A stretch of DNA of 34,846 nucleotides. It comes from Porpidia crustulata (lineage: Eukaryota). The notes below the pieces were generated by a model. That model made no database searches and was not told where the DNA came from. It saw nothing but the letters and a program-made list of their open reading frames with translations. Every line of letters starts with the position of its first letter. The first letter of the stretch is position 1. The position numbers and the translations under genes are program-made. The stretch is from assembly GCA_964255105.1 (NCBI GenBank), contig CAXUWE010000009.1, positions 1-34,846 of the forward strand, written 5' to 3'. This document shows positions 1 through 29,226 of the stretch, piece after piece.

Positions 1-414
1 GTTTGGGGTCGTGAAAGGACCATTCCGCCTTCTAGACGGACGCAAGCTCTTTGGCTGACACTTCAATTTTCAAAAGGGGTGATTTTTGATCGAATTAGGA
101 CAGAGTGCAAAGAAGCGATTTGACAAGGGAAAGGTTTATAACCCTATCACTAAGCCCTATTTGAGTCATATTAAGCCCCAAATGGAGGGGTGTATGAGTA
201 GGCAAAAGGGGTGTACGGTTAGTGATTCTTTATAATAATAATACTCAGTCTTTCAACCTTTAATTTTTAAGCGCCCAATATTAACCGAGTTTCTCATTAT
301 CTCCAGTCGAAAAGACTTGAATATCCGTCTTAAACCAACAGTTTCTCCTTATACCCCCCTCATTCTGATCTCTCATCAGGCATTAGCTGCTCAGAAGCTT
401 CAAAGTTTCTAGGT

Positions 415-3257: not shown

Positions 3258-6200
3258 TTACGCCGCTTGAACAATATCGCGTACAATTCTCGCAGCACGG
3301 TGTAGCTGCTTGACAAAAGCTGCGGTCCGTTCCGGCGAACCACCGGTGAGGCAAACACGAATCCTACGGTCAGAGGTTAATCAGGGTTTCTAGCAGAACT
3401 TTGATTGGACGTGACTTACTCGCTTTTCTCCGGCCATATGATAGTCCAAAACCCCTCGGCATCGGGTAATAGGGTGGCGAAGTCCTCGACGACCATTTCC
3501 GTGTCGAGTCCGTTGCTCTGAGCAAAGATGGTGGGGAACGGTTTGCCGAAAAAGATGTGCTCGCTGAGGAAACGCGGCTTTGGCGTGCCGGCGTCGGATG
3601 GCCACAGCCAGCTCAGCACCTCGAAGACTCGCATGTAGCTGCGCCCGTTAAGCATGGTTAGCATATCGGCGTGCATCTGCTTGGTGGCGGGCGATAGGAG
3701 AGCCGCCAGTCGGGCTGTCTGGCCAGGTTGGCTCTGATCTTGATCTTGATAGGCCTTGGCGGCTGCGTCGCAGAAAGTAACAACCGTGGGCGTGGCTTTT
3801 TGCACGGCATCAGAACGGCCGGTGTGGTAGTGAGCTGCGCTGGTAGGCTCCCACGAAGGGATGTTTCGTCCAAAGAAGAGCCGCAAAGCGAGTTGAAAGG
3901 TGATGTCAACGACTGCCTTGATAGATACTTTGCCCTGCACTAGGAAGTCGGTGCCAAATTCTGTGAGATGCTCTCGCACGTATGTTCTATTTGCCGGCGA
4001 GGTATACTCGAGGAAGCGATTCCTAAGCACACTTATGTGACCCTCAATTTCAGGCGTTGTTTGAAGAATGACTTCGGCGAGCTCGGTTCTTGACGTAAGC
4101 CTGCCGTTCAGCTGATCCTGGTTGGAACTGGGCATATACTCATCGATGGCGGTGACCATCCATTCCAAGAGACGTGCAGGAGTGGTGCCATCGATGATTC
4201 CATGCTCGGTGATCGAGCCTGAGCGACCATTCGCGCTTACGTAAAACTGTAACACTTTGTCAAACCAGCGATTCGAACCATCGCCGATGTAGCCCTGTCG
4301 CGCGTTTTCTTCGGGCGTTTCGGGGCATCCATCATCCAAGCACAAGACGAACATAGCGGCATCAATGACGTGGAAGTATTTGGCATTAGCAAGGCTCAAT
4401 GCCGACAGCTTCTCTCTCTTCTGTGAACAAGAATGTGAGCACGGAGTAAAAAAAAACGATATGGGTGATTAGCGTTGACTTACTAGCGCCCACGAGTCTC
4501 TCTCATCCGTGGTCAGTATACCTGGCCAGACACCATCGTCTTCCACTTGCGCTACGATGGCTTCAAACGTGGACTTAAGCTCTTCAAACGGCACGTCTTT
4601 TCCATGATCCTGATCTTGAAGCATCACCTTGAAAACGTGACCTCTCCTCAATACTGCGATATAATCGCGAGCACTTTGGTCTTCCGAATCGTAGCGCATC
4701 ATCTTGTCGCACCCAACATGGGGCACTCGCACCGAATTGAAGAGCCAGTCCCATCTCCACGTGCACTCAGGCTTGCCACCGATTCGAAGAGGCTCGATTG
4801 TACCGGCCTTCATCGCCCGCTTGAAGGACAGGGCCGTCGAAGAGATGATGGCGGCACGTTCGGCCTGCGATTGAGGTCTCTTGCTATTGCGGTGTGCCCC
4901 CATAATACTAGCGTACGGAGCGATCGGGCTCCGTCTGGACAGCCATCGAGCATCCGTGAGGATGTCGTTATACCAGCCATTGCTCTTGTCATGGTCGTGC
5001 GTCTTGAACAATTCCTGAAAAACCTGGCGAGAAGGGCTACCCGGGGCTCTCATGGCCCGAATTTCTTGTTGAATCGACTCGAGCTGTTGAGGGCTGTAGA
5101 GATGTCTATTCGCCTCGAGCCAGAAGTTGAGAGCATCGTCCAGGTCCGGCAGGGGCTGGTCGGGCAGCTCTTCGTTAAGCCGGCAACAATCCCAGCCATG
5201 GCGAGGCTTAGTATTATCGTTATGTTCATGGCCATTTGCAATTACACCATTCATATTCTCAGGCGATGGCATTGTTCCACTCTTATTTGCGCTCTCCTGT
5301 TTCTCGTCGTCGTCGGCTTTGACTTTGACTCTGCACTTCAGATCCATCCTCGATACAATTAGTTTGGCGAGGGCAATAATGCTTTGTGCGCCAATTAGCT
5401 CGGATGTCTGCAAGGGCGTCTGGAAGATATGCTTGATCCAATTCTTAAGTTCGATAGAGACCAGGGAATCCAGCCCGAGTGACATTATAGGTTGATCGGC
5501 TGGCACGTCGTCGCCTATAAAGGCAGCGAATTTGTCGAGAAGGGCCTGCTCAACGATATCCTCGGCTTCCTCCACCGACTCGGCTCGTTCAACGGCCTGC
5601 GTGGCACTTGGCTTTTTGCTGTCGGCCGCACTGTTGATTGTTGCTTCTTCTTGGCTCCTCTTACTAGGCACGTGGTCGAATAGATGGTCACTTAAAGCTG
5701 TCTGGCCTATGGCGTCTTCCATGGTGTCGCGATCGAAGGGCATAATACATTGCAGGGCTTCATCAACTCGGGCTTGCGGTCCCATGGCATACTTGAGCGT
5801 AGCGAGGAGCTCGCGAAACGTTACAGCGCCAATGATGCGCGCGATCTCGCTGTTCTGATCGAGGGCCCGGGCAATCTGTTCCGACCCCTCCACGGCGCCA
5901 ACATTGATAGTAGTGTACTGGGTGATGCCTTGATTGCCTTGGGTGTGGACGCGGGCAAAGGCGTCCTGGAAAGCATTGCCTGCCGCATAGTTGCTTTGGG
6001 AGGGCGAGCCGATGAGACTAGCCACGGACGAAAGCATGATGAAGAAATCTGTTGTCTCCGGCGAAACAAACGCCTTGTGCATGTTCCGCGTGCCCCAGAC
6101 CTTGGGGTTCACGGCTGTTTCCCAGTGCTCGAGCTCCATGTACTCCAAAGGGTGGTCACAAAGCACCAATGCACTCTGGATAACGCCTCTCACCGGTGGG

Positions 6201-9200
6201 AGTGCCGCTATTTCGTTGGTAGCAGCACGTGTGCTCTCCTCATCGCCGATGTCACACTTGAGAATGTGGAGTGTACCTCCAAGTTGGCTAATACTCTCCT
6301 CTAACGACACCCGTTGCTGAGAATCGACACTCCGGCGCGATAGGGCCACGATATGACCAGCCCCGTGCTCAACGAGGAAGCGGCCCATTCTCTTGCCCAG
6401 ATCACCGAGGCCACCTCCAATGACATACGTCCCCTCGTGATGTAGTCGGAGCGGAGGGACCTTTGGCCTGGGTGCTTGCACAACCGTCTGTTCGTCGGCC
6501 ACCAACACTAGCTTTCCTACGTGTTTCCTCGCAGCGATGAGACGGAAGGTTTCCTCGATGCGACTTATAGGGTACGTCGTCACTGGGTAGACGGGCTTCA
6601 CAAGGCCCTTGTCAGCCATGGCGAATACTTCTCTGAGCCCGCGGGACACATATTCAGGACGCAGTCGGTACATGTGCGAAACGTCCACGGCAGCAAAGGT
6701 CGCCTGCTTTTCGAAATTGGCCATGTTCAACTGGCTGCGGCCAAATATATCCGACTTGCCAATCTCGACAAACGTCCCGAATTGGGCAACGCAGTCCCAG
6801 CTGTCCATCAGGAGCTCGCCCGAGAGGGAATTAAGGACTACGTCAACACCTTTGCCCTGAGTCGAGCGCAGGATGCCTTTCTTGAAATAACGGGAATGTG
6901 AGGAGAAGATGTGGTTTTCAGGTATGCCGTACTGGTCCTGGATCAGCTTTCGCTTAGGGACGCTACTCACCGTGGCAAATATCTCAGCTCCGATGAGCTT
7001 CGCGAGCTGGATGGCGGCTTGACCTACACCTCCCGAGGCTGCGTGAATCAAAACGGTTTGGCCCTTCTCAAGCCGGGCAACGTGGGTGAGACAGTACCAA
7101 GCCGTGTAGTAGACAACGGCGAGAGAGGCGGCGTCGGCGAAGGTAATGGAATCTGGGATGGCTACTGTACCAGCGCTGTCAATTCGCACCAGGTTTCCAA
7201 AGGGGGCTACCATGAGTCCAAGGACCCTGTCGCCGGTTTTCCACAACGATTGAACATTAGAGCCGACTGCAGTAACTACTCCAGCTGCCTCGCCGGTCAT
7301 TGCTGATCCCGGTTGCATCTGGCCCAAGGAAATGAATACATCTTTGAAGTTAACACCGTGCGCGTAAGCCTGTACCTCGATCTGGTCTGGGCCAAGCGGC
7401 TCTGCCATCATGTTGTTGTCCACGAAGCGAATAGTGTTGAGCAAGCCCGGTACCTGGACGTCAAACATTAGAGGCCTATCTTTGTCGAGATATTTGCACT
7501 CTATCATAGATGTAGCGCCCTGGTCTTGGTCTTGGTTCTGACTGTCGGTGTAACTTGCAAAGCGGTCGTCGGGAATGACTCTGGGGATGGTCAATTTGCC
7601 ATCGCAAATAGTGTACTCCAGCTCTTCAGCGCAAACCGTCGGAGAGACAGGCCAGAAGGATGACATGGCGATTTTGGTGAGGGTCTGCACAATACGCTCA
7701 ATCTCCAGGCTTCCGTGTCCGCTTCCGGAAAGCTGGATCTGGTCTTGGATGTCGACCGTGATGAGCCGCAGACCAGGATTCTCGCGTCGGACTACCCTCC
7801 TCATGCCGTTAACCATGTTCTTCAGGGCCGCAGTCTCAGCAGATGGTGGCGAATATTGAAAGCTGACCCAGAGGACACTCCTGCCTTGGAGCAGAAGCTG
7901 TTTTGTCTGCTCAAATGCTTCCTGGGTCGGATCCAGCAGGAGCGGGTGCTCGGCAGAGTCAATAACTATCAGAAGCTTGTCGGCATCTGTTGCAGTGTCG
8001 GTCGTGCCCCAGGCTTGCTGGCTGCATGTAACACCTTTTTTGCCCAAAGAGAGACGTATTGCGTCTCCGAGGGCCACCTGAGAGGAATGCGAGTACCCGA
8101 GACGCACACTCGCTTTCATCTCCATCACAGAACCTGGACCTTGAATGTCCTGGCTGTCACTTCTGTCCAATGTGCCTGTAGCTTGAGTCACAATCATAGT
8201 ACTGATTGCGCTCGAACTGCCAGTGTGAGCTGGAATGGCAAGATCCGTGCCGCTGAAGCCATGACGCTTCAATACACTGTCCCATTCAGATACGGAGAGG
8301 AGCGGCCCATCCTTGCGTCCATCTTCAGACATCCACCAGCCCTCCAATGTGCCAAAAATGACGTTTTGGGCGGCCGCGAGCTGCGTAAGTTCTATGAGGA
8401 TGAGTCGACCGCCTGGCTTTAACAATTTCCGCACATTTGTCATCGTGACGTCCATCAGAGGTGTGGCATGCAACACGATGGAGGCAACAATCACATCAAA
8501 TGTATGAGCGGTGTAGCTCTGAGCGAGCGGATCGCGTGAAATATCGAGTGTCTTGAAGTCGATCTGGCCAGTCCACTTGCTGAACGTATTTTGCGCACGC
8601 ACGAAGAAGCCCGAGGAGATATCGGTATAGGTGTACTTATCTAAAAGTAGCCGGCCGTTGCGGTTGATGCTTTCCATGAGCGGCAGGGTTGCGCTGCCGG
8701 TACCAGCACCAATCTCCAAAATCTTCATCTTGGGGTTTTTGTGAACGAGAGTTAGCAGATACTCGGCCCCTTGCGCATAGTGGCAGTTGAACAGGGTGGC
8801 CTCGGAGTAAAGTCGCCCTAGCAAGTTGTCCTGAATCAGGAGCTCGAGTGAGTCCGCTTTTCCAGTGAAGAGATCAAAAAGCCACGGCCCGAAGCGACTC
8901 AAGGTGAACCCGACGATATTATCATTCCTTGCCTGCTCTATGAGCTGGGCTTCGTCTTCAGGAGTGACACCGGCCAGAAACCGTTCGGCCTCGTACTGGT
9001 TCCACTCTGCCATCCAGCTTAGGAGTTTGGAGAGGTGGGGAGAGCATGCCGTGGATATGTTCTCCTCTCGCATGCGGTTGACTACCCTGCGAATGAAAAT
9101 CGTTGCGACTTGGTCGTTGAGACGCAGTTGCTCCTCGGCGATGAGCTTACTCAGCGTTCCGTACCCGACATCGAGGAGGCTGTGGCGAGAAACGTGATCC

Positions 9201-12200
9201 ATGAAGTCGTTTTGTGTGATATGATCGGCGTCGGGCTTGTATTCTAGTCGGTAACTTGTTTTCTGCTTAAGGGAATTGGTCGAATTGACTTCTCCAACGA
9301 CTTGAGGCCGAATCGCGCTACCCGTGAACACGGGACGGAACGTTCCATTGCTCTGCTTCTGAAAGGCACAGAAGTTCCCTGACGCTGACCGTCGACTTTC
9401 TGGAAACAAATAGAAAGTCACCAGAATCTCGGCGCCTGGCGTAGTATCAATGTCGGCAGATATTGATACTTCGCCGATCGTGACGGGCATCATGGGTGCG
9501 ATAGTGCACTCTCGTCGGAACACTACGGCCTCTAGCTGGATCATGGAGTCGAAGGCAGTAGGATGAATGGTATGCGGCTGCATATAGTGCCCAGGCATCA
9601 TTTGCGCGACATTGTCAACGACAATCCTGGCAAGACCGCAGCACTTGCCAACATGGATCTCTTTTAGACCCTGAAAGCTGGGGCCATAGGCATTCCCTGA
9701 TGCTGTGAGTTCACCATAGAGCTCTGCTGGATCGACTTGGATATTAGAGTTTGTCTGGATGTCCGCCAACATTTCAGTGGCGGCTGCCATCGTCAGATGA
9801 CCCAGGCCATCATCAATTCTGGTGCCCTTGAATTCATCGAACTGGGATTGAGACTTGCTAGTATCGGATTCGCTTGCGGTAAGGCCGGTGCAGTGTTCGA
9901 TCCAAGAGTCGATCTGAGAATCGTAGGAGAGGACCCGGAAGTACTCCCAGGGACTTCCCGCATATTGACGCGCAGGGCTAAGTGTGAGTTGCAATTCGAC
10001 CTCGCGGTCGCCTTTCGCACCTGCACCGTCACTAGGGACCACGACGGGTTTCGCGAAGGTGACGTCTCGGAAATTGATGCACTTGAGACGACTTGGAATC
10101 TTACGTATGTGGAACAGTTGCTTCATGGCTTCGGTAACCATGGTCAAATAGCCGACACCCGGGAAAATGACGAATCCCTCGACAACGTGGTCTCGCAGCC
10201 ATGGGAGAGTTTGTAGGCTAACGTGATATCTCCATCGCGGCTCATTTGGAGAGCTATGGACGTCGAAGAGGCCGAGAAGGTCATGGTTAGGGAAGGGACG
10301 AAGACGGTGGCCTTTGCTGAGCCTTGATTCGTGCCAGTAGGTAGAGTGTTCCCACGCATACGTTGGAAGATTGTCAACGACCTGATACTGAGAGTTTGAG
10401 CTAACATTTCCACGCATTACAGCATCTAGCTGAACGGGGTATCCAGCTTCGAACGCCTTGCCTACTAAGCCAAGGATAGTACTCACTGCGCTTTCGTTGC
10501 GGACAAGGCATGGAAGGTAGGTGTACTTGAAGGAACCACCCGAAACTTTGAAATCGGACAAGGACTGCCTCAACGGTCCAGCGAGCGCGGAGTGGGGACC
10601 AATTTCTACCAGGACGTTGTTGGCTGCGGAACCAACAACAGATAAGTGCTCTGCCACCAACCGAGACGCGGCACTGAATTTGACTTGTGAAACCAGGTTG
10701 GAGACCCAGTAAGAAGGCCCAAAATCGGACAGCTTGCGGGTACCAGTGACCGATGAGTAGAAGGCAAGATCCTTCCGTGCCATACCATGAGCCATGTTGT
10801 CCAGGGACGAGAGATATGATTGTGCCACCACCTCCATATGATGAGAATGGTAGGCCGAATCCACCTGGAGTCGTCGATTGAAGACAGACGCAGTGTCCAA
10901 GATAGCTTGGAGCGCTTCGATGGCCGCCAGGTCGCCAGAAATGGTGGTACTCTCGGGACTGTTCACGCAGGCTACGGTCACTTTGCCCTTGCCGCTGGCG
11001 ATGCCCTGGATTCTTTGTTTGATTGCTTCCTCTCCTTCGCCAACAGCCAGCATAGTCCCCGATGTCGCGTTCAAGCCTTTGGCCACGGAGGACCAAATGC
11101 CTCTGTTGTAGGAGGCTTGCATAGCGGCCTCCTTGCCGAGAGCACCCGCAGCGTAAGCGGCTGCAATTTCTCCTGAGCTGTGGCCACACACAGTCTGCGG
11201 TCGGATGCCGTAACTCTCAAGTAGGTCAACCAGGGCGATCTGAATCGCTGTTGTACATGGCTGGGAGAACCTGCTATCACCGAGTCGCACTGTCTTCTTG
11301 TCCCGAGACAGTTCCTCGAGAAGGTCCCATTCGCATCCAAGGCCTTTCATGATCTGGTCACAAAGTGCTACTGAGGATGCAAAGACTCGTGAGGTTGTCA
11401 AAAGCTCGCGACCCATGGCGAACCACTGAGCTCCCTGGCCCGTGAAGATGAAGGCCATGCCGACTCCATTTGCTGACTTGATAGGGCGTAGCTTCGAGTC
11501 TCCTAANNNNNNNNNNTTCTTTAGCTCTTCCGTTTTGCTTGCCAGGACTCTTGAGCGCCAAGGGAGTTTTGAGCGACGAATATTCAATGTGTAAGCCAGG
11601 TCAATGAAGGGAGTGCAACGGTCCTGGTCGGACGCGAGCCATTGTTGTAGCTTGGAAATCACATTGCTGAGCGACGTTTCAGAGTTTGCCGAGAGAACTA
11701 CCGGCATTCTTTGGGTGTGGTGATATTTGTAATCTCTGTCGGCAATTCCATTAGAGTGTCCATTGGAGTGTCCATTTGTAAGTCCATTGGCGTGTACGTT
11801 AGCATGTCCGTTAGAAAGTCCATTAAAGTTTCTATTGGAGTGTCCATTGGGTAGACGAGAATTAGTAATAGGGGCGTGGTCGTATGCCTCAAGAATGGCA
11901 TGAGCATTAGTTCCCCCGTAGCCAAAGCTGTTGACAGAGACTCGCCTGGGTCCAACATGACCTTCTGGCGTGAGCGATGTAAGTTCCAGTGGCACCTGGG
12001 CACAAATATCAGCAGCTAAGTAAAACAAGTGGGCCTCTCCATCGAAATAGACCTCAACTCACTTTGATGCCTCTCTCTTTAAGACGCAGAGTTGGCTTGG
12101 GGTTGATGAAATTAAGATGCGGCGGGATCTGATTCTTTTTCAAGACCATGACAGCTTTGATCACGCTTGCTACTCCGCTAGCAGATTCCAGATGGCCAAT

Positions 12201-13562
12201 ATTGGTCTTTATGCTCCCCTAATGCGACACGGATATCAGCCTTTCATCGGCCAGGGTTTGGATACAAAAGCTTTGTAATTTTTCTGTCTGGGGCGAGAGA
12301 TGCTGCAAAGAATGTCTGACACGCTAGAAACGGGGTAGCATGAGGGACAAGACGATTGGTTCAACGTACAACGGGTATATCAGACTTTCGCCCTGCTTCG
12401 CGCCCGAACACCTTGGAAATGGATTGAATTTCAGCATTGTCGCCTGCAGGACTACCGTGTTAGCATTACCAATGCTAACGAAGGAGGAGGGAAGTAAAAA
12501 ACATACCAGCCGCGGTCCCTGTACCATGAGTTTCCACATACAAAGTCTCGCGGGGGTCAAGGCCAGCCTTGGCATATATTGATCGTGCCAAAGCTTCCTG
12601 TGCATCGGCATTGGGCAGGAAAATGCCAGAAGTCTTGCCATCGTGACCAACCCCTGAGTCCACGATGACTGCATGGACCGCGTCACCGTCGGCCAGGGCT
12701 CGGTCAAGGCGCTTCAGAACAAGAACACCAAGACCCTCGCCTCGCCCATATCCAGCGCCACGATCATCGAAGGTGTAACATTTCCCGTCTTTATTGGTGA
12801 GTTGGCTAGGCTGGTCAGCATCGAGCAATTACGTTTGTAGCGAGGCCACTCACGACATGGCAATGGACTGGTCAGGCGTCAGCAGCAGTTGACTGGCCCC
12901 GGCAAGGGCCAGCGTAGACTCATTTGCCCTCAGCGTACCACACGCTTGGTGTAATGCCACGAGACTGCCAGACTGTATTAAATTACGTTCCGTGAGCAGA
13001 GCAAACATATGGCAGGACTGGTAATACTTACACATCCCGTATCTAGGGTGTTAGAAGAGCCTTTCAGATCCAAGACATATGAGATTCTGTTAGACAGAAT
13101 GGCATCTCCCGACCCTATAATGTGAGTCTTGTGAAGCTGAGGCCCGTCTCTGTAACCCATTCTGTCGTAATCTCGTGCAAACATTGCCATGTGCACAGAA
13201 GTGTTCGAGCCACGCAAGCTCTTGATGGGAATGCCAGCATTCTCGATTGCTTCGTAAGTAGTTTCGAGTAGAAGTCTCTGCTGGGGATCGATACCTGTAG
13301 CCTCAGCGCCGGGGATGCCAAAGAATCGCGCGTCGAAGGCTGATACGTCCTGATCCACATAATATCCGTGACTGAAATTCGTAGCTTCTCTAGCATCTGG
13401 ATTCTCGTGGTAGAAAGACTTCCAGTCCCAGCGGTCTTTGGGCACCTCTCTTAATCCATCCCTCCCCTCAGCCAACATAGACCATAGGCTCTCTGGATTA
13501 TCGGCGCCTCCTGGAAGGCGACAGGCCATTCCGATGACGGCGATCTTGCTTTCCGTTGCCAT
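3258..13562 (-). CDS. Highly reducing iterative type I PKS with C-terminal carnitine/choline acyltransferase-like domain (KS-AT-DH-cMT-ER-KR-ACP-cAT), ~3265 aa, 8 exons
   Basis: Exons 13562-13032, 12972-12854, 12805-12507, 12443-12370, 12218-12063, 11995-4484, 4420-3420 and 3363-3258. All introns are GT-AG; exons total 9798 nt, in frame. KS DTGCSGSL / ETHGTGT / [34 protein letters not shown]; c[49 protein letters not shown]; c[28 protein letters not shown] 10-N gap at 11507-11516 lies in the KS-AT linker. Confidence 0.95.
11507..11516. other. Assembly gap (10 N) inside the HR-PKS coding exon
   Basis: Run of ten N. Confidence 1.
11745..11855 (-). repeat. Coding low-complexity (S/T/A)NG(H/L) repeat in the KS-AT linker of the HR-PKS
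   Basis: Translation [35 protein letters not shown]; imperfect 12-nt units such as ggagtgtccatt on the + strand. Confidence 0.8.
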
Positions 13563-15760: not shown

Positions 15761-16545
15761 TCAATGGTCTTTCAGGCTTTCCCTGTCCATGATGTTGACA
15801 TTGATATTGGCCCGACGTCGAAGCCAAGTTTCCCTGGTCTTGGTTTCACCTCTACTCGCGTAACAAAGTGCCCTGAAAGCCGAGCCTTCGTCGTTCAAGA
15901 GGTCCTTGGCCGCCCCAACCTCGACCGGACGGCCCGAATCAAACACAAACACCCTGTCCAAGTTCACCAAGCTCTACAGACTATGGGTGACCATGATGAC
16001 TGTTCGGTCCTAGAAACCTCCCCTGATGATGCCCAAAATTGTGGCATTCGTGATGGGATCCATACTGGTTTCATATCAGCCTGATTGTGCGCTTTGTGAA
16101 CCATGGTGGGACGGTAGGGGCGAAGGAACAGACTGCAAGATCAAACTGGAATGAAATACACGCTTATAGGCCCGTCGACTCGTCTAGTATCAGTATACTG
16201 CTTTCTTACAAAAGAGCTCTCCCGAGGTAGAAAACTTGTCATTGGCCATGTGAACGTGAATTTTCGTTCAAAGTGGTACCAAGGCCGCCAGAGGACGTCA
16301 CTTTACTCCATAAGTCAACTCGTTCCAGAGCCTACATTTTTGAGTAATCTGAGACTGCGTCTTCCCAGGGGCTTGCATTCTTCCTCACAGTCCCCTCAAA
16401 CGGAAAAGGCTTCTAAGTGACGAGATTGAGCTTGAACCGAACAAAGCCAGAGTTCAGAGTAACGATGTTGACTCTATCAATCAGTCTATACCATTGGTAA
16501 GATGGTAGCAGACATAGCAAAGCTGCTACAAGGCTACTTTTCCAC
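15761..16545 (-). pseudogene. Decayed C-terminal nucleotide-binding domain (NBD2) of an ABCC/MRP-type ABC transporter
   Basis: Manual translation: (G)KSSLVAALL (Walker A tail, 1-nt frameshift) ... LNLVT*KPFPFEGTVRKN (Q-loop) ... ALERVDLW..GGLGTTL ... SHGQ*QVFYLGRALL*ESSILILDEST (signature + Walker B), then an intron, then MDPITNATILGIIRGGF*DRTVIMVTHSL*SLVNLDRVFVFDSGRPVEVG. Six in-frame stops (16413, 16332, 16239, 16206, 16010, 15974); intron donor reads ATAAGC instead of GTAAGC at 16167. Confidence 0.9.
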
Positions 16546-17147: not shown

Positions 17148-20100
17148 TCAGAAATTGTACACGCTCAACTTTTCAATGTACCGACATGCTTTCCAAAGCT
17201 GAGCTCCAGTTTCGCCAATCTAGGATGAGTTAGTATTGACAAGGTATATCGAGAAGATAGTGAAATTACGTTTTTCTGTGAGAAGGCCTCGAAATGGTTT
17301 CCTGGAATTGGGAGAACCTCGACATGACCACCAACCAATCCTTCCCAGGCTACGATTGCAGCAGCTCGAGCATCCTGGTCACTGAGCCAGTCATAGCGAA
17401 CCCCACAAAGGCTTTCAGTATCCAAGACGTCCTGGCTTCTCAACATGACCGTCTTCAGCCTCAGTCCATTCCTTTGGGAGGAGGGTGTTGCCTCGTAATT
17501 TCCTAGCAGAGATGCGTTGAATTGGAATTCTTCCCTGAGTGCAGCATTGGCATTCAATGCATGAGTCTGACTGCTCCGTTTAATAATGTTGTCAATGACT
17601 TCATTCGGAAGAGGTTTGTGATCAATAGGATTTGGAGAGTCGATCAATATGAGGCCCTTCACCTCAAAACCATTCGCTACGAGCTGTTGAGCCGCCTCAA
17701 AGGCCACTATTCCGCCAAAAGACCAACCTTAAATTATTAGCTAGGTCCAAAAGCAGGCGGGAGCCAGACTCACCACTCACTATCAAGGGGGATAGTTTAG
17801 ATCTTGAGAGGAGCGAGACGTAGTACTCAGTCATCTGGTTTACGCTACTATGAGGTCGTTTGTTACTCCCAAAATGCGGGTCGAAGAAGGCGTACGCACT
17901 GCGGTCGTGATCACGCAGTCGTGCATACGTGCTGACCTGCCCACTCCCGTCATGAAAAAGGCAGAGCGGTGCTAGCTCTCCGTGTGAAAAATGCAGCGCT
18001 ACTGGATTTTTCTGCAAACCATCAGATGGAGAATAGTCTGAGGGAACAAGTGTAGACTGACGTGAATCTCTCTGACTCGCGGATGCGGGAACCCCAATAA
18101 GTGAAGTGAGTTCCACTGACGATTGCAGAATGGATGCCAGTGTGCTCTCCAAGGACTCGAGAGTTTCGCATTCTGATAAAACATTATGGTCCAGCCCTAT
18201 TTGACCGGGAAATTTGCGTGTCAGTTTCGAGATAATTTCAATTCGCATAAGAGAATCGATCCCAAGCTCATCTAGTGAATTCGTGTAATCTATATCTTGT
18301 TTGGAAAAACCGCCAAACTCCATGACGATGTTGTGCAGCGCTATTCTAAGGTCATGAAGAAGACTACCACCAGACTCGAAGGGAGTGTTTGTAACCTCGC
18401 CACTTGTGGGAGGAGTATCCAAACCAGTCGGTAGCTGCGGTTTCTCTTGCTCTACAAGAAAATTCCAAGGCTCAACGGCAGTGGACTTGCGAGACAACGC
18501 TTGCTGGAAAGCAGATAATCGGAGTCTTTTAAATTCCATGTCCCGGATGACGGCAACGACTTTCCCAGACGCAGTCAAGGCTATTGCGTCTGCTAGAATT
18601 GCACCTTTGGTTTCGAGCAAGCTACAGTAGACCGTGAAAGTATCCGCGTAATCGATATCACGGTAAGATATCTCGATCGACTCGACGCGGGTGCAAATAC
18701 ATACTTCATGGGACGTTACAGCAAGATTTGCGATGAAACCTGCAGCATGCAGAAGTGTGTCTGTAAAGACAGGGGGTGCAAGGTAACCGGTCTGAGAACT
18801 AGAAGGTATCTTAAAGGAGCCAATACCTTCGAGATTGGAGCTTGCCACACTCAAATACACCAAGCTCTGGTACTCTGGGGAATATCTAACAACGCGTGTA
18901 AAGATAGCCTCATAAAGGATTTTAGTTTGGAAGGTACTGATGTGGTTTTTCCTACCATCAGAGAAGGATTGACTTTGTCTGTTCACAACTGCCGCATCCT
19001 TCATCCAGTGGGATGCGTTGATCCGGAAGTTTTGCAGGGAGACACGACCAGTGCAGTGTGTATTCTCCTTAAGATCTTTGGTCGAGTATGAGGCAATCTT
19101 AAAGTCCACCCCGGAATCTAAATCGTGTTTTGTGATGTACACAGTCACAAAATCTGCTTTCTGTGACGGTACATATATCAACGGACTGGCAAAGGTCATC
19201 CTGCTGACGACCAACAACTGGCTCTCGAGAGGCTCAAGCATGGTTTGTGCTCCTTCCAGGGCGAGCTCATGGAATACTGACGCTGGGCAGATGGAAATCC
19301 CGCCAACGTCATGGCCTGAGATTAGTGGCCCAAGAATTGCTAATGTTGTCTCAAGCACAAATTCTTCGCTCGAAGACGCTTGAGTCTTCAGCCATGGTAA
19401 CAGGTTAAATTCAGTCTTGGTGCGGAGCTCCATGGAAAATTGCTCAATGGAACCGACAACTTGACGAGTTTCCTGGTAAGGTATCATATAGGTCGAACCC
19501 TCTAAAGGATGGCCTGGTAAGCCTGTGACTTTTGCAGACGTCCCAATAAAAACTTCGCGCCAGTTGACAGGTAATTTGAGCAATGAAATTGCGGCCAGCG
19601 TTGAACTAATCGAGGTCCATGCATCTTGGCCCTTTTGTAAGGTACCAAGGTAGGTACAAGATTCTGGATGAATAGAGCTCCGTAGCATTGGTATAGTTGT
19701 GGGTTGTGGACCTACCTCAAGGAAGACAGCACCGTCGAGCAGCTCTCTTGCTTGTAAATTTAGCAGATCTTCTGTAAAGCGCACTGGCTGCCTCGCGTGA
19801 AGCGCGAAGTAGTCACTAGAAAAGTCTTCCTCTTCGAAAAATCGCCCGAAAACATTAGAACTGACGGGAATTGTAGGTCGTGCGAACCTAATTGACCGTC
19901 CCAAGGCTTTCAGGGGTTCCACGATTGGATCCATAGCTGGTGAGTGGAAGGCGTAGGGGACGTCCATCGACTTCACGTTGACCTTACGGGCCTTGCAATC
20001 CTTCCTAAACATTTCGATTTGGCCTAGCGGTCCACCAACGACACAGTCACTGATGCCATTTAAGCATGCCACGGTCAGCTGGGACACGTTCGGGTTTTCC

Positions 20101-23100
20101 AGTATTAATTCCTCGGCCTTTTTAGGGGATAATCTGCACGCCAGCATCCCAGACGCGCTAGCCACACAATTATCGGTCATCATCTTCGCTCGGGATGCCA
20201 CAACACGCAGTGTATCCTCTAATGTCAGCACCCCCGAGAAGCATAAAGCAGCGTATTCGCCGAGACTGTTGAGATCAGCCCGCTAGTAGATAAGAGACCT
20301 CCAGGGCGCTGACGTACCTATGACCCATAACATATTCGGGCACTATCCCCCATGACATGAATATTTTCGCGAGCGCATATTCTAGTGCAACGCACGCACA
20401 TTGTGATGCGATGACCTGTTCAGCGCCGTCTAATGCTTTTACTTCCCTCCGATCTTTACATAAATTACTGAGAATGCTTGGGTATCCCAATCCTTGAATA
20501 ATGCCATCACAGTTCATGATGATCTCTCTAAAAAGAGGGAATGCGTACATCAGTTCTTCTCCCATACCGTGATACAGACCGCCTTGTCCAGAAAAGACGA
20601 AAATAATGGCTGAAATCTTCTGAGCAGGAATAGAGTTGACAGCTTTGCAATGTTCTAACCTTGTCCGCAGATCATCAATAGAGGTGCATACCACGGAGAT
20701 GCGATAATCATAGATCTGACGTCGCGCAGTTGCAGTATAGCAGATGTCTTTCAACAACGGCTGACGTTCTGTTCCCTCCAGGAATCGAAGATGTCGACGT
20801 ACAGCCGTTCCTAAGGCAATCTGTGATTTTGCAGAAAGTGCAAAGACGTACGCTGATCGCTCCTGATGTTCGGGCTGAGGATTTGATGGCTCAACCCAAT
20901 CTTCTAGGAGGAGGGACGTGTTTGAACCAGCAGCCCCGAAATTATTCAGCATAGCTCTCCTTGGGGTTTTTTGCAAGTGGTTCCATGCTGTAGTCTGCCT
21001 TGGTATGATGAAGCCAGAGCTTTCCAGGTCCGCGAAACTTGGATTGATGTTCTTAAATCCGACTTGTACTGGGATTTTTTTCTCGCGAAGCATGAGCAAC
21101 AACTTAGCCAAACCAGCTGCTCCAGACGCGGACTCACAATGGCCTATGTTACCCTTGATAGAACTGACCACGAGGGGGTTCACCGTTGAGTGATGTGGGC
21201 CAAAGATAGTTCTCAAACTTTCAATTTCGCGTGTATCTCCGGCCTATCAAGTAAGATTAAATAAGTCTGACAAATCAGAGCAAAGGGTAGAAACCTGTGT
21301 GCCTGTCCCGTGTGCTTCTATGACACCAATGGATCCAGGGTCGACATTCGTCTGTTGGAGCAGTCGCTGAAATAGGTCGATTTGCGTTTGACTATGAGGA
21401 TGTGTAATAGAATGGGCATTGCCGCTTTGATTTATCATTACGTTTCTAATTACTCCGTGTATGTGATCGTTTTCCGCGATAGCATCAGACAATCGTTTGA
21501 GAACAAAGAGAACACATCCCTCAGCTCGACAATATCCGTCAGCAGCTGCATCGAAGGGTTTGCAGCCTCCGGTTGGGCTGAGGAAGTGACCTCGGGCTAA
21601 TCCAAGGTACATCTGTTACTTATCAGCAAACAATTTTGTATTTCTGAAATCTGCATGACGAAGATACTGACATCGGGGCTAGAAACCACATTGGCGCCGC
21701 CCGCGATAGCTGCTGTGCAATCGCCGCGTTGCAGAGCTCGGCACGCCTGGTACACGGAGACAATTGAAGACGAACATGCAGTATCAGTGACAATGGATGG
21801 GCCACTGAGCTTATAAAAGTAAGAAATCCTCCCACTGTGAAATGCTCGCAGTGTCCCGGGGGAGTAGAAAACATCAATATCATTGCGAAGATTGTCTGTA
21901 TAATCCCCAGTGGCAAGGCCAATATAGCATCCAGTGGAAGCTCTTTGGAAAGATCGTGATGAGTCCCCTACATATCCAGCGTCTTCGAAGGCTTCCTGAG
22001 CTGCATGCAACAGAATGCGCTGCTGAGGATCCATGGATGTTGCTTCTCGAGGGGAAATGTTGAAAAAGGCGTTATCAAAGCTGCAGGATCTTGGTTTTAG
22101 TTTTCTTGATCAGGTAGGATTTAGGAGTTTGGGAATATCTATACAGGAGCTTATAGTATGCCGAAAAAGAGTGAGTCAAGAGTTGAGACATGCTTAAACT
22201 CCTGATAACAACTGAAAGAGAAGAGACAAACTCAGAAAATCCGAAGACTCACGAGAAGGGATCGTCCAGGAAAGCGCCGTGCTTTGTGGGCATCGAGCGC
22301 GTCTTACGCGAATCCTCCTCTGAACAGTAGTCAGAGACTTTGAACCTGGACTCAGGGATCTCTTGCACGGCATTCAACCCTTGGGACAGCGTTTCCCATA
22401 GCTCTTCGGTCCCCTTCCCTTTAGGAAGATGCACGCTCAGCCCAACAATGGCGATGCTATCTTGGTGGTCACAAGACAAGTGAGATTTACTACTAGCTCT
22501 AAATGGCGAGAGATCCAAAAGTTCTATTCTAGGATCAAGAGGCTGAAAATCTGGGAATAGGGAGCCGGAGCCTGGTCCGAAGGAAAGGAGCTTTACGACT
22601 GTTGCGGGCTCCTGTATTAATAACCCCCTCACACTTGCTGCGATCTCATGAGCTGTGTCGCTCCAATTTACACAGTGTATCAAAAAGTGCCGAACTAACC
22701 ACCCAAGCAGCTCTGAAGTATCGGTATTTGCAGGATCAAATAACGTGCCGTCCAAGGTTGAACGAATGGGTTTTGTAAGTGTGGAGTAAGAGGGGAAGGA
22801 GACGGCCCGACGCCGTAAATCTTCAAGAACTTCGTGGACAACACCTTCGAGTTGATGTCCTCCATGATACCATCCATGAACGTGCGCGAAAGTTGTTGTA
22901 AAATCGGGGACGGCCTGCGCCCTGAACGCACTGAGGTCGACTTTAGGGCCAGAGATAGACACAACGCTAGAATTAGAGATAGCAGATACCTGGACTCGTC
23001 GAGGTGGTTGCTGGGACGACGTGCTAGGTCCCTGCGTCGCAAAGTGCTTTACTAATCTTTCTTCGACCTGACTTGGGGAAAGACCCCAAATTACGAGGGA

Positions 23101-23664
23101 CGATGTCGCTTCTGAGTCGACGACATCGCCAACGGGGTCGCTTGCATTGGCATTGAGGCTCCAGAAGAGACTACGACATGCAATCCAAAAGGCAAGACGA
23201 AATCCTTGAATTCCATTTGTCACAAAGTCGTCCAAGCTGCGCGAGCGTGCAACTATCGCAGCCGGGAGCAAGCCCGAAGAGAAGCCCGTTGTCTCTCGAA
23301 GTCGGTCAAACGAGTCCTCGAATGGTCCATCGACACGCTGTGTCTCGGCCAGATAATGTAACAGCTGGTAGAGGTAGATGGTGGTTACCTGGAGCACCGC
23401 ATGTGTGTGATATTGTGTGACCGGCTTGAGCAAGTCATGTGGGGAGGAGAACAGGGCGGGATCGATGGCGAGAAGATGCTGTGAGTGGGGGTCTAGACTC
23501 GCTATCTCCTGTAAGAAAACCGCATGGCATCTTGACAGAAGAATACTGCCAGCGCTCGCGGATCGAGTATCTTCCTGTGCTGTCTCGGCCGCATTGGGCG
23601 AGAAAATGGACGGCGAACCCTGACCTCCAAATAACACCAGACACTGTACTCTCCGCGCGGGCAT
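17148..23664 (-). CDS. Non-reducing PKS (SAT-KS-AT-PT-ACP-TE), orsellinic acid synthase (OrsA-like), ~2028 aa, 7 exons
   Basis: Exons 23664-22253, 22080-21672, 21612-21295, 21243-20318, 20265-17774, 17727-17270 and 17219-17148 (6087 nt, in frame). SAT FGGQG / [37 protein letters not shown] (split by intron), YAFHS; PT GHDVGG..CPAS and DTLLHAAGF; single ACP GIDSL; TE HDGSG, GWSFGG (split by intron), PGNHF. No methyltransferase or reductive domains. Confidence 0.93.
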
Positions 23665-25860: not shown

Positions 25861-26936
25861 TTACAAGTGGAACCGCGTTTCGATACATGACACTTGTCGC
25901 GAATGCCAGAGACCAAACAGTCTCTCTGCATTACCTGAATATACGGCGCTTCTCTGACCTGCGTCAAACAATTCTTTACAGCCTTTATCCATCTGATCTG
26001 CTTGGTCGATGACAATTTTCTCACGGGTGAAAGGATAGTCAGTCCCATAGACCAGTCTTTGCTCTCCTCCCTTCCCTAAAGTCCTGAGCAGCCCGTGGAT
26101 CTGATCCGGGAAGGGAAATCCAGCCAAGTCAAAGAAAAATCTCTCTCGCAGTAACTTTCGGAATTTATTGCTCTGATTCTCTCCTCCTTTGAAAAGAGTC
26201 GCAAAAGCGCCGATACGATCCACGATAGAGGGAAGCGCACAGCCACAGTGCGACATGATGTAGGTGATATGGGGATACTTCGATACCGTGCCTGAGAGGA
26301 GTAGGTTGGCAATGGCACGTGTCTCATCAAACATAAATTCCATCATGGGACGAGGATATTCTTCAAGTGGTTCTATCGCCTGCACTCGACCCCCAGGAAC
26401 AAGCAAATTGCAAGAAGTAGGATGAATAAAGGTGATGGCTTTGCGTGCGTTGAGCTTTTCAAAGACTGGGTCCAGCGCCTTGTCTCCAAGATACACTCCA
26501 TTTGCGTTAGACATAATTGCAAGTCCTACTGCCCCAAGTTTGTCCAGTGCATGATCAATTTCAACAATGGACTCCAGAACAAGAGGAAGTGGCAAAGAAG
26601 CAAAAAATCCAAATTGCGAAGGATGATTGGTACAGATTGCAGAGAGCTCCTCGTTGGTTCGACGGGTCATGTTTGCAGCTTGTTCATCATGATTGGGGGT
26701 CAGGTGTGTTCCTGGGGATGTAATGCTTAAAATTGACTTGCTGATATTCAGTCTCTTCATGACGGCAATATGCTCTTCTGCACTCCAGGCCTGGGCTCGT
26801 CAGTGACACAACATGGTACGAGAAGCTGGCTTACAGGAAGGGCAGGCATCCCATCAGGCTTCTCATGGCCATTATCGAGGGCATATTGACGATAGCCTGG
26901 GGCCACAGCATGACAGTGAACATCAATTCGCTCCAT
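25861..26936 (-). CDS. Amidohydrolase-2 family metal-dependent aromatic acid decarboxylase (OrsB / PatG 6-methylsalicylate decarboxylase-like), ~343 aa, 2 exons (26936-26835, 26790-25861)
   Basis: N-terminal RIDVHCH (HxH metal motif), PDGMPALP|AWS, SILSITSPG, FIHP, MEFMFDETRA, MSHCG, FDLAGFP, YGTDYPF. 44-nt GT-AG intron at 26834-26791. Confidence 0.9.
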
Positions 26937-27724: not shown

Positions 27725-29226
27725 ATGGCGGTACCAAACAAGCCCCTCGTGCTCGTATGCAGCACGCCAGTATCTGGACATATTATACCCATGCTATCAA
27801 TCGCAAAACATCTCGTCGCCCGGGGCTATGATGTCTGCTTTGTATCTGGCTCGGGCTATCGCCAACAGATTGAAGCTATCGGCGCGTCTTTTGTCCCGGT
27901 CGAAGGATATGGCGACTTCTATGACCTCAGGGCACGAGACCTCGATCCCCGTTGTATGCGATTTTCAATGTTTAATTTTCCCTTTCAGAAATTACACGGA
28001 ATTGAACCAAAAAATTTTCTTCCAAAATAGCCTATGATCAATTTTTGAACTTCATAATTAATTCCTGATTAAGTAAACTAACTCCAAGATCCTCACTTAA
28101 AGGGCCCATCGTCCAAAAGACACTACAAGGACCTGACAATTTCAACCACGACTTGGTACATATATTTTGTAAATCACTACCCTCACAACATGAGGCTCTA
28201 CAGAGAGCCCTGAAAATTCTCAGCGACAAGCACCCAGAAAAGCCCATTATTCTCATGACCGAGAGCTTAAATTTTGGAGCTTTGCCTATGACCCTCGGTG
28301 TTCCAGGAATCCGACCTAAAGGGTATATAGCCGTTGGGCTCAACCCTGTTCTACTGACCAGTATTGACCATCCACCTTTTGGTCCCGGTTTGCCGCCAGA
28401 CAGCTCTCCGGAGGGCCGAGAGCGAAACAAGTCTGCGAATGAAAGGCAGAAGCAGATTTTTGCTCTATCTCAAACGGCATTCGGGGAAGCACTCATGAGC
28501 GTGGGAGCTAAGAAACCAGATATTTTCTTACTCGACGCTCTCTATGTTTTAGCGGATCGTTTCATACAAATGTGCACACCCAGCGTAGAATACCCGAGAA
28601 GCGATGCTCCAAAAACCTTGCGGTTTGCGGGTGGCTATCCTAAGGCTCCTCGAGACTTGAACCCCACGAGACCGGCCTGGTGGCATGAAGTTACCAGCAG
28701 CAATACCAGGAAGATCATCTTTGTCTGTCAAGGAACCGTTGCTACGGATATTAATAATCTGGTCATCCCTACCATGAATGCGTTGAAGGAACGCTCAGAC
28801 ATCATTGTCGTCGTCGCAGTAGGAAAAAAAGGAGCTGTGCTGCCAGCAGACGTTCCCATCCCGTCAAATTGCAGAGTGGCAGACTATATCCCTTACGACG
28901 ATTTCCTCCCGTACTGTGACGTCTTCGTCACAACCGGGGGCTACGGGTCTTTCCAACGCGCGCTCAATAACGGTACCCCTTTGGTAATGGCTGCTGAGAC
29001 GGAAGAAAAGCCGGAGACAGCTGCGAGGGCTGAATGGGCGGGCGTCGCGGTGAATCTCCGAACAAGTAATCCCTCGATTGACCAGCTCGAACAAGCTATC
29101 GATGAAATTCTTTCAAATAAGAAATACAAAATCAGAGCTTTAGAGATACAAGCCGAGATTGCGATGTATGATCCTGTAGGTGTCATAATAGAGAATATCG
29201 AGGAGTTGGCAGGGAGAAGCGTGTGA
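27725..29226 (+). CDS. GT1-family UDP-glycosyltransferase (fungal phenolic O-/C-glycosyltransferase type), ~450 aa, 2 exons (27725-27953, 28103-29226)
   Basis: N-terminal STPVSGHIIPM with catalytic His; EYPRSDAP; VCQGTVA; UDP-sugar binding box DYIPYDDFLPYCDVFVTTGGYGS..ALNNGTPLVMAAETEEKPE. Intron 27954-28102 (GTATGC...CTAAC...AAG) gives DLDPRWP; acceptor chosen by frame. Confidence 0.9.

What the first reader, a model, noticed from the sequence alone, without database searches (positions are those of the whole stretch)
3258..5180. HR-PKS carries a fused carnitine-acyltransferase-like domain with catalytic His kept but acceptor pocket remodelled
Seen: after the ACP (GLDSL, ~5470) the protein continues ~600 aa with [27 protein letters not shown] and EHGIIDG (His at 4204-4202), plus a last exon (3363-3258) absent from the ORF track. 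The canonical YESA.TR.F..GRTE motif is changed to [15 protein letters not shown], and no STS carnitine-binding motif is visible. Established (recalled): PKS-cAT fusions are uncommon and release chains onto alcohols, polyols or sugars (Trichoderma virens Tv6-931; sordarin SdnO). Inference: here it esterifies a sugar hydroxyl of the aryl-glycoside, so no stand-alone acyltransferase is needed.
Basis: partly seen in the sequence, partly recalled or inferred. Interest (0 to 1): 0.72.

Follow-up and report, generated by a model that had tools for sequence, protein, structure and literature searches.

The report
Polyketide synthase with sugar-acylating end domain
This fungal polyketide synthase ends in a known kind of acyltransferase domain and sits in a five-gene cluster that looks like those for papulacandin-type antifungal glycolipids; the 'remodelled pocket' is ordinary for such fusions, but the cluster seems to belong to a relative of lichen-forming fungi.

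Summary
A 3,265-aa HR-PKS (KS-AT-DH-MT-ER-KR-ACP-cAT; seven GT-AG introns) ends in a ~596-aa carnitine-acyltransferase (cAT) domain with the catalytic His at 4204-4202 and a real last exon at 3363-3258.

The 'pocket remodelling' is not special. Of 95 PKS-fused cAT homologues, none keeps Tyr452 or the STS motif, and all keep His343 and Arg518. The published LtbA domain shows the same changes.

The context is more informative. This cAT lies in a clade that includes a Fusarium sacchari PKS (58.8% identical). In that group 29 of 53 proteins share a contig with orthologues of the window's glycosyltransferase or decarboxylase, against 0 of 62 more distant PKS-cATs.

With the neighbouring NR-PKS and P450, this fits a papulacandin/fusacandin-type pathway in which the cAT esterifies an aryl-C-glucoside. 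I recall this being shown for fusacandin SacB (2025; not in the library, unverified).

Verdict: new member of a known kind. What may be new is a minimal, intact version in a close relative of the lichen fungi Trapelia and Xylographa.

The parts
3258..13562 (-). HR-PKS gene, KS-AT-DH-MT-ER-KR-ACP-cAT, 3,265 aa spliced; introns 13031-12973, 12853-12806, 12506-12444, 12369-12219, 12062-11996, 4483-4421, 3419-3364; 10 N at 11507-11516 keep the frame
   Evidence: 91.5% identical to a Trapelia coarctata protein (P0141), 87.8% to Xylographa soralifera (P0143), 58.8% to Fusarium sacchari ALQ32954.1 (P0037)
5462..5476 (-). ACP phosphopantetheine-attachment motif (Ser at 5467-5465)
   Evidence: PF23297, PF00550
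4484..5167 (-). cAT N-terminal part, in the same 7.5-kb exon as AT-DH-MT-ER-KR-ACP
   Evidence: PF00755 2-231, E 2e-43; dN/dS 0.10-0.22 against 4 loci
3420..4420 (-). cAT middle exon with the catalytic His and the acceptor-side residues
   Evidence: (PF00755 226-505, E 7e-50); dN/dS 0.14-0.25
4202..4204 (-). Catalytic His (His343 of mouse carnitine acetyltransferase)
   Evidence: kept in 95 of 95 homologues
3809..3853 (-). Stretch matching mouse CrAT 452-466: Tyr452 to Trp, Ser454 to Pro, Thr465 to Ser
   Evidence: Trp in 91 of 95 homologues
3512..3523 (-). Stretch in place of the STS motif; Ser probably at the Ser554 position
   Evidence: register not settled
3258..3363 (-). Last exon (35 aa plus stop): final strand and helix of the cAT fold
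15761..16330 (-). Degenerate remnant of an ABC-transporter C-terminus (stops, frame changes)
   Evidence: read by eye; no Pfam hit
17165..23664 (-). Non-reducing PKS, SAT-KS-AT-PT-ACP-TE, orsellinic-acid-synthase type by architecture; 3' end approximate
   Evidence: orthologues at 53-55% on the same contigs as GT and decarboxylase orthologues in Fusarium lateritium and Rhypophila
25861..26936 (-). Amidohydrolase-fold aromatic acid decarboxylase
27725..29226 (+). GT1 UDP-glycosyltransferase (proposed C-glucosyltransferase), single copy in the genome
31275..33127 (+). Cytochrome P450 (proposed benzylic hydroxylase)
   Evidence: joined to the cAT exon by a deletion in relative L012

Best explanation
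The cAT is the release enzyme of a papulacandin/fusacandin-type pathway. Inferred steps: the NR-PKS makes orsellinic acid, the decarboxylase turns it into orcinol, the P450 hydroxylates the methyl group to give 3,5-dihydroxybenzyl alcohol, and the GT1 C-glucosylates the ring. In parallel the HR-PKS builds a C-methylated, partly reduced polyene chain on its ACP. The ACP arm enters the cAT tunnel from the CoA side and the aryl-glucoside enters from the old carnitine side. The His at 4204-4202 deprotonates a glucose hydroxyl (O-3 in papulacandins), which attacks the thioester and releases the ester. Shown here: anatomy, fold of a homologue, residue conservation, selection and gene co-location. 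Inferred: every substrate, the order of steps and the product. The tunnel mechanism is established knowledge for carnitine acyltransferases (recalled).
For: Five apparently intact genes on one contig match the parts of papulacandin D: aryl unit, glucose, one acyl chain on O-3 (chemistry from PMC12824588 and PMC3388860). 29 of 53 close PKS-cATs share a contig length with a GT or decarboxylase orthologue, against 0 of 62 distant ones. Consecutive locus tags for PKS and GT occur in Fusarium sp. NRRL 66182, Stachybotrys and Cercophora. Two gene models merge the PKS with the GT. All 18 co-located rows fall in one 37-row clade with the window (support 99). The clade's hosts include Apiospora and Fusarium, genera of known producers, and a GT orthologue comes from F. 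sambucinum, the fusacandin producer. A cAT using a glycoside acceptor has precedent in LtbA (PMC10901484). Purifying selection acts on the cAT. Recalled only: F. sacchari SacB cAT esterifies the aryl-glucoside in fusacandin biosynthesis.
Against: No expression, metabolite or enzyme data. Co-location rests on matching contig lengths and locus tags, not on reading those contigs (could not open them). 24 of 53 close homologues had no match. Kin share clusters, so this is about one evolutionary event. I could not confirm that P0037 is SacB, and the paper was not found. No second glycosyltransferase, membrane acyltransferase or oxygenase lies in the window. Motifs cannot predict the acceptor. cATs also hydrolyse or use small polyols (PMC10901484). 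5 of 11 related loci are broken. P450 orthologue co-location was not tested outside L012.
Confidence: 0.72

Rival explanations
1. The HR-PKS hands its chain to the NR-PKS as a starter unit, giving an alkyl-resorcinol C-glucoside (stromemycin/carnemycin logic, recalled). The cAT then serves as hydrolase or shuttle.
For: HR-PKS, SAT-bearing NR-PKS and GT1 occur together. Such compounds exist in fungi (their biosynthesis is recalled).
Against: A complete cAT under purifying selection would be redundant. Decarboxylase plus P450 fit the hydroxymethyl-resorcinol unit of papulacandins. Clade hosts match papulacandin-producing genera.
Confidence: 0.1
2. The cAT releases the chain to water or to a small polyol (as for MaPKS17a or Tv6-931), and any ester with the glucoside is made by an unlinked acyltransferase.
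For: Both outcomes are reported for cATs. The genome has MBOAT-family genes on 7 other contigs. The window's motifs are generic.
Against: Tight clade-wide linkage to one GT family. 21 alignment columns are conserved in the clade but not outside it, as expected of a fixed acceptor.
Confidence: 0.08
3. The cAT acylates the benzylic or phenolic hydroxyl of the aglycone, before or after glycosylation.
For: The P450 would create a primary alcohol, which is a good nucleophile. Nothing in the sequence excludes it.
Against: In described papulacandins the long chain sits on glucose O-3.
Confidence: 0.05
4. The cluster is a silent or decaying relic in this lineage and makes nothing (compatible with the ancestral function above).
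For: Stops in L007, L011, L015 and L016, and a ~28-kb deletion in L012. A broken ABC-transporter remnant lies inside the window's cluster.
Against: The window's HR-PKS has an open frame over 3,265 codons with canonical introns. GT and decarboxylase align full length with homologues. dN/dS is mostly 0.07-0.25.
Confidence: 0.12

Closest known systems
SacB of the fusacandin (sac) cluster, Fusarium sacchari (recalled: J Am Chem Soc 2025; not found in the library, nothing of it seen)
   Same: As recalled: HR-PKS with C-terminal cAT that esterifies an aryl-C-glucoside made by a neighbouring C-glycosyltransferase. An F. sacchari PKS-cAT (ALQ32954.1) is 58.8% identical overall and in the same cAT clade.
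   Different: Identity of ALQ32954.1 with SacB is unverified. Its methyltransferase motif is degenerate whereas the window's is intact. The recalled O-galactosyltransferase and membrane acyltransferase are not in the window.
LtbA, luteodienoside A HR-PKS-cAT, Aspergillus luteorubrus (PMC10901484)
   Same: Same domain order, catalytic His kept, glycoside acceptor, same loss of the Tyr452 and STS motifs in the printed sequence.
   Different: Separate clade: LtbA-like proteins are 35-38% identical in the cAT (placed by eye from the printed sequence). The acceptor is glucinol, made by a GT2. No NR-PKS, decarboxylase or P450.
Tv6-931 (Trichoderma virens), MaPKS17a, SdnO, AF-toxin PKS
   Same: HR-PKS-cAT architecture (passages).
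   Different: Polyol release and recapture, hydrolysis, or unclear function. Sequences were not compared here; Hang et al. 2017 is not held.
Carnitine/choline acyltransferases (mouse CrAT, ChAT, CPT2; own-genome L001, L002)
   Same: Fold (homologue model: TM 0.82-0.87, Z 36-37.6, rmsd about 3 A over 552-573 residues); His343 and Arg518 kept.
   Different: 22-26% identity to the genome's own enzymes. Tyr452, Ser454 and Ser552/Thr553 replaced. Fused behind an ACP.
Lichen reducing-PKS group R-IX (PMC9146135)
   Same: Lichen HR-PKSs with an optional cAT after the ACP.
   Different: Membership of this gene in R-IX not tested. The passages read assign no product or cluster of this type.

Membership tests
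Choline/carnitine acyltransferase domain (PF00755) | Profile match above cut-off across the domain | tested here: met
   149 and 171 bits for the two halves, cut-off 22.3
Choline/carnitine acyltransferase domain (PF00755) | Catalytic His (His343) in place | tested here: met
Choline/carnitine acyltransferase domain (PF00755) | Two-lobed CrAT/ChAT fold, complete to the C-terminal helix | tested here: met
   model of a 68%-identical homologue (P0004), pLDDT 89.4; Z 36-37.6; the window's own protein was not folded
True carnitine acyltransferase (carnitine as acceptor) | Tyr452, Ser454, Thr465 and the STS motif of the carnitine site (roles recalled; numbering) | tested here: not met
   Trp, Pro, Ser; no STS; Arg518 is kept
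Fungal HR-PKS-cAT (Tv6-931, LtbA type) | KS-AT-DH-(MT)-ER-KR-ACP-cAT in one reading frame | tested here: met
   ACP and the first 230 aa of the cAT lie in one exon; spliced model 3,265 aa
Fungal HR-PKS-cAT (Tv6-931, LtbA type) | cAT-dependent chain release | not testable with these tools
   needs mutants
Papulacandin/fusacandin cluster | NR-PKS, decarboxylase, P450 and GT1 linked to a PKS-cAT (gene set inferred from product chemistry and recall) | tested here: met
Papulacandin/fusacandin cluster | Orthology to the characterised SacB | tested here: inconclusive
   clade with an F. sacchari PKS-cAT; its identity with SacB could not be checked
Papulacandin/fusacandin cluster | Genes for galactosylation, second acylation and spiroketal closure | tested here: inconclusive
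   none within the contig; the assembly has 2,447 contigs and unlinked genes were not identifiable; MBOAT genes exist elsewhere
Papulacandin/fusacandin cluster | Product is an O-acylated aryl-C-glucoside | not testable with these tools
   needs chemistry

The most novel reading that the evidence does not exclude
A lineage of lichen-forming fungi (close relatives of Trapelia and Xylographa) carries a stripped-down five-gene papulacandin-type cluster with an active methyltransferase. It would make a mono-acylated, non-galactosylated aryl-C-glucoside, an undescribed lichen metabolite that could inhibit beta-1,3-glucan synthase of competing or parasitic fungi. The cluster is being lost independently in some related lichens.
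Probability: 0.4. Interest if true: 0.55.

Novelty: new member of a known kind. Interest (0 to 1): 0.33.

Why it matters
The domain fusion and its motif changes add nothing new. The cluster could matter: papulacandins inhibit fungal beta-1,3-glucan synthase and their acyl tails decide activity (PMC3388860, PMC12824588). A compact five-gene version with a different chain programme would be a simple route to new analogues. It would also point to glycolipid antifungal defence in lichens, where the papers I searched describe none. The cAT clade defined here is a usable genome-mining marker for this compound family.

Tried and rejected
1. Motif changes as a sign of a special pocket: rejected, they are universal among 95 PKS-cATs.
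2. Mis-joined genes (cAT as a separate gene): rejected, ACP and cAT start share one exon and homologues are fused.
4. Reading relatives' contigs beyond 10 kb: records not held.
5. Literature on fusacandin or papulacandin biosynthesis: not found in searches. Residue-level CrAT papers: none. Hang et al. 2017: not held. Lichen plus papulacandin/cAT cluster: nothing relevant. Subscription papers are mostly absent, so these blanks do not show absence in print.
6. IQ-TREE run timed out; FastTree used instead, with long-branch warnings.
7. Register of the STS region: the profile alignment stops before it, and the column I labelled Phe566 is probably position 564, so I make no claim on 564/566.
8. The KR-ACP row of the dN/dS table was out of frame and is discarded.
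9. Solved structures: no close structure for the GT or decarboxylase. The Atlas gave only generic PKS clusters.
10. Downstream flanks of relatives are not conserved; an O-fucosyltransferase-like gene near L013 could not be tied to the cluster.
11. Earlier findings: none.
12. Docking is not available. The SAT motif comparison and the L012 junction analysis were not done.

Full report
OBSERVATION. The minus strand carries one long gene from 13562 to 3258. A model guided by the closest homologue has seven GT-AG introns, 3,265 codons and no internal stop; 10 N at 11507-11516 keep the frame. Pfam gives KS, AT, DH, MT, ER, KR, ACP and then PF00755 in two halves (E 2e-43 and 7e-50). The ACP and the first ~230 residues of the cAT lie in one exon, so the fusion does not depend on a splice guess. 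The last exon, 3363-3258, splices the same way in 9 of 11 related loci. In the other two, DNA similarity ends at the stop codon. An AlphaFold model of a 68%-identical homologue (P0004; pLDDT 89.4, pTM 0.91) matches choline and carnitine acyltransferases over its whole length (TM 0.82-0.87; Z 36-37.6, rmsd about 3 A). The last exon supplies the final strand and helix. Against four related loci, dN/dS is 0.10-0.25 for the two main cAT parts, 0.07-0.44 for the short last exon and 0.07-0.15 for the AT (one out-of-frame row discarded).

IS THE POCKET SPECIAL? No. A search with the KR-ACP-cAT junction found 165 proteins and listed 120. Of these, 95 cover the whole cAT; 25 were dropped as partial, mostly ending at the intron. 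I numbered positions on mouse CrAT from the alignment; the roles of the residues are recalled. His343, the Asp four residues on, the Arg of the Gly-Arg pair and Arg518 are kept in 95 of 95. Tyr452 is kept in 0 of 95 (Trp 91, Thr 4), STS in 0 of 95, Ser454 in 5 and Thr465 in 9. The genome's two stand-alone carnitine acetyltransferases keep Tyr452 and an STS-like triplet, but one has Pro at 454, as the window does. The LtbA cAT printed in the supplement of PMC10901484 shows the same Trp and no STS. The third STS position seems to hold Ser in the window and Ser/Thr in 33 of 34 close homologues, but this register is not settled. Loss of the carnitine site is therefore the ground state of PKS-fused cATs and says nothing about this acceptor.

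CONTEXT. The contig (the window is all of G000:C9) holds, in order: HR-PKS-cAT, a broken ABC-transporter remnant, an NR-PKS (SAT-KS-AT-PT-ACP-TE), an amidohydrolase-fold decarboxylase, a GT1 and a P450. A HET gene flanks the other side. I searched homologues of the GT (392 hits, 120 listed) and the decarboxylase (1,345 hits, 120 listed) and matched contig lengths. Among the 65 more distant ones, 62 had a length and 0 match. Locus tags agree: F66182_7764/7768/7769, S7711_06084/06085/06088 and OQA88_7921/7922/7926. Two gene models run the PKS into the GT (61-69% identical to the window's GT); I read these as merged neighbours. NR-PKS orthologues sit on the same contigs as GT and decarboxylase orthologues in Fusarium lateritium (ACHAPU_007044/47/50) and Rhypophila (10 of 150 hits looked up). 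In a FastTree of 100 rows the window falls in a 37-row clade (support 99) with all 18 co-located rows and F. sacchari ALQ32954.1; LtbA-like proteins form a separate clade. Limits: contig-length matching is indirect, misses are expected on short contigs, and relatives share clusters by descent.

WHAT IT MAKES. Papulacandins are aryl-C-glucosides of a hydroxymethyl-resorcinol, acylated at glucose O-3 and often galactosylated and acylated again; they block beta-1,3-glucan synthase (PMC12824588, PMC3388860; passages). Producers include Apiospora, Fusarium sambucinum and Sordariales. These groups hold the clade, and a GT orthologue comes from F. sambucinum. The five genes map one-to-one on a papulacandin D-like core without spiroketal closure. 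I recall a 2025 paper on the fusacandin cluster of F. sacchari: SacA C-glucosylates 3,5-dihydroxybenzyl alcohol, the SacB cAT makes one ester, and a membrane acyltransferase and an O-galactosyltransferase finish the molecule. Six searches did not find it, so it is a lead, not evidence. The window's MT motif is intact while that of F. sacchari and several others is degenerate, suggesting a methyl-branched chain as in papulacandin D (inference).

MECHANISM AND ODDS. Most likely (0.72) the cAT transfers the ACP-bound chain to a glucose hydroxyl of the aryl-C-glucoside using the His as base. Rivals are starter-unit hand-over to the NR-PKS (0.10), release to water or a polyol (0.08) and acylation of the aglycone (0.05). 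A silent relic (0.12) is partly compatible with the main reading. For the relic reading: of 11 related loci, four carry in-frame stops in the PKS (L007, L011, L015, L016; L011 and L016 may be one event), and L012 has lost about 28 kb, joining the P450 3' end to the cAT exon. Against it: the window's PKS frame is open, and its GT and decarboxylase align full length with homologues. No RNA data were available.

NOVELTY. HR-PKS-cAT fusions, glycoside acceptors for them (LtbA) and their presence in lichen genomes (group R-IX, PMC9146135) are published. The finding as posed is a new member of a known kind. The closest named proteins come from Trapelia coarctata (91.5%) and Xylographa (87.8% PKS, 82% GT), so the host is probably a related lichen-forming fungus. 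I found no report of a papulacandin-type cluster in lichens (passages of PMC13062703 and PMC9146135), within a library that lacks most subscription papers. Beyond the P450 the window has 1.7 kb without a recognisable gene, and in L012 unrelated genes follow, so the cluster may end there. Unlinked tailoring genes cannot be excluded in a 2,447-contig assembly.

PAPERS SEEN. PMC10901484: first quarter of the text, passages, supplement search and part 7 of 8 (figures, including the alignment, not visible). Passages only: PMC12824588, PMC10142451, PMC3388860, PMC9146135, PMC10512364, PMC12422058, PMC11441467, PMC13062703, PMC13267043. Nothing seen (recalled or cited second-hand): Hang et al. 2017, the fusacandin paper, CrAT structure papers, stromemycin biosynthesis.

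VERDICT. Real feature, correctly located. The acceptor inference is probably right, but for reasons other than the motifs. Interest 0.33; the lichen-cluster reading would deserve about 0.55 if shown.

Noticed in passing
L012:9206-11307 (window 33175-32413 joined to 4446-3115): A relative has lost about 28 kb of the cluster, joining the P450 3' part directly to the cAT middle exon; both remnants are still 88% identical to the window.
   Followed up: partly
L007, L011, L015, L016: In-frame stops in the PKS of several close relatives (5 in L007, 1 each in the others): the cluster appears to be decaying in part of this lineage.
   Followed up: partly
L005:1294-4437 (G000:C166): Another cAT-like domain in the genome, His kept but other motifs strongly changed, fused in one frame to an Asparaginase_2 domain and a further C-terminal region; the open frame is 1,580 aa, so more domains lie upstream.
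   Followed up: partly
window 15761-16330 (-): Degenerate ABC-transporter C-terminal remnant between the two PKS genes; possibly the cluster's former exporter. Identified by eye, no Pfam hit.
   Followed up: partly
window 334-2734 (+): HET-domain (heterokaryon incompatibility) gene next to the PKS 3' end; not conserved in the flanks of related loci.
   Followed up: partly
P0143 and P0280 (Xylographa soralifera MMC17_002405 and _002406): PKS-cAT and decarboxylase have consecutive locus tags, so the NR-PKS that lies between them in the window is missing, moved or unannotated there.
   Followed up: no
P0141, P0143: Public gene models of the two closest named proteins stop before the last cAT exon and so lack the C-terminal strand and helix.
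   Followed up: yes
L013:15498-17108: O-fucosyltransferase-family gene 4 kb downstream of the PKS-cAT in one soil-type relative; link to the cluster unknown.
   Followed up: partly
P0016, P0019, P0031, P0037, P0038, P0044, P0045: The methyltransferase SAM-binding motif is degenerate in many members of the clade (Fusarium, Stachybotrys, Seiridium and others), predicting unmethylated acyl chains there.
   Followed up: partly
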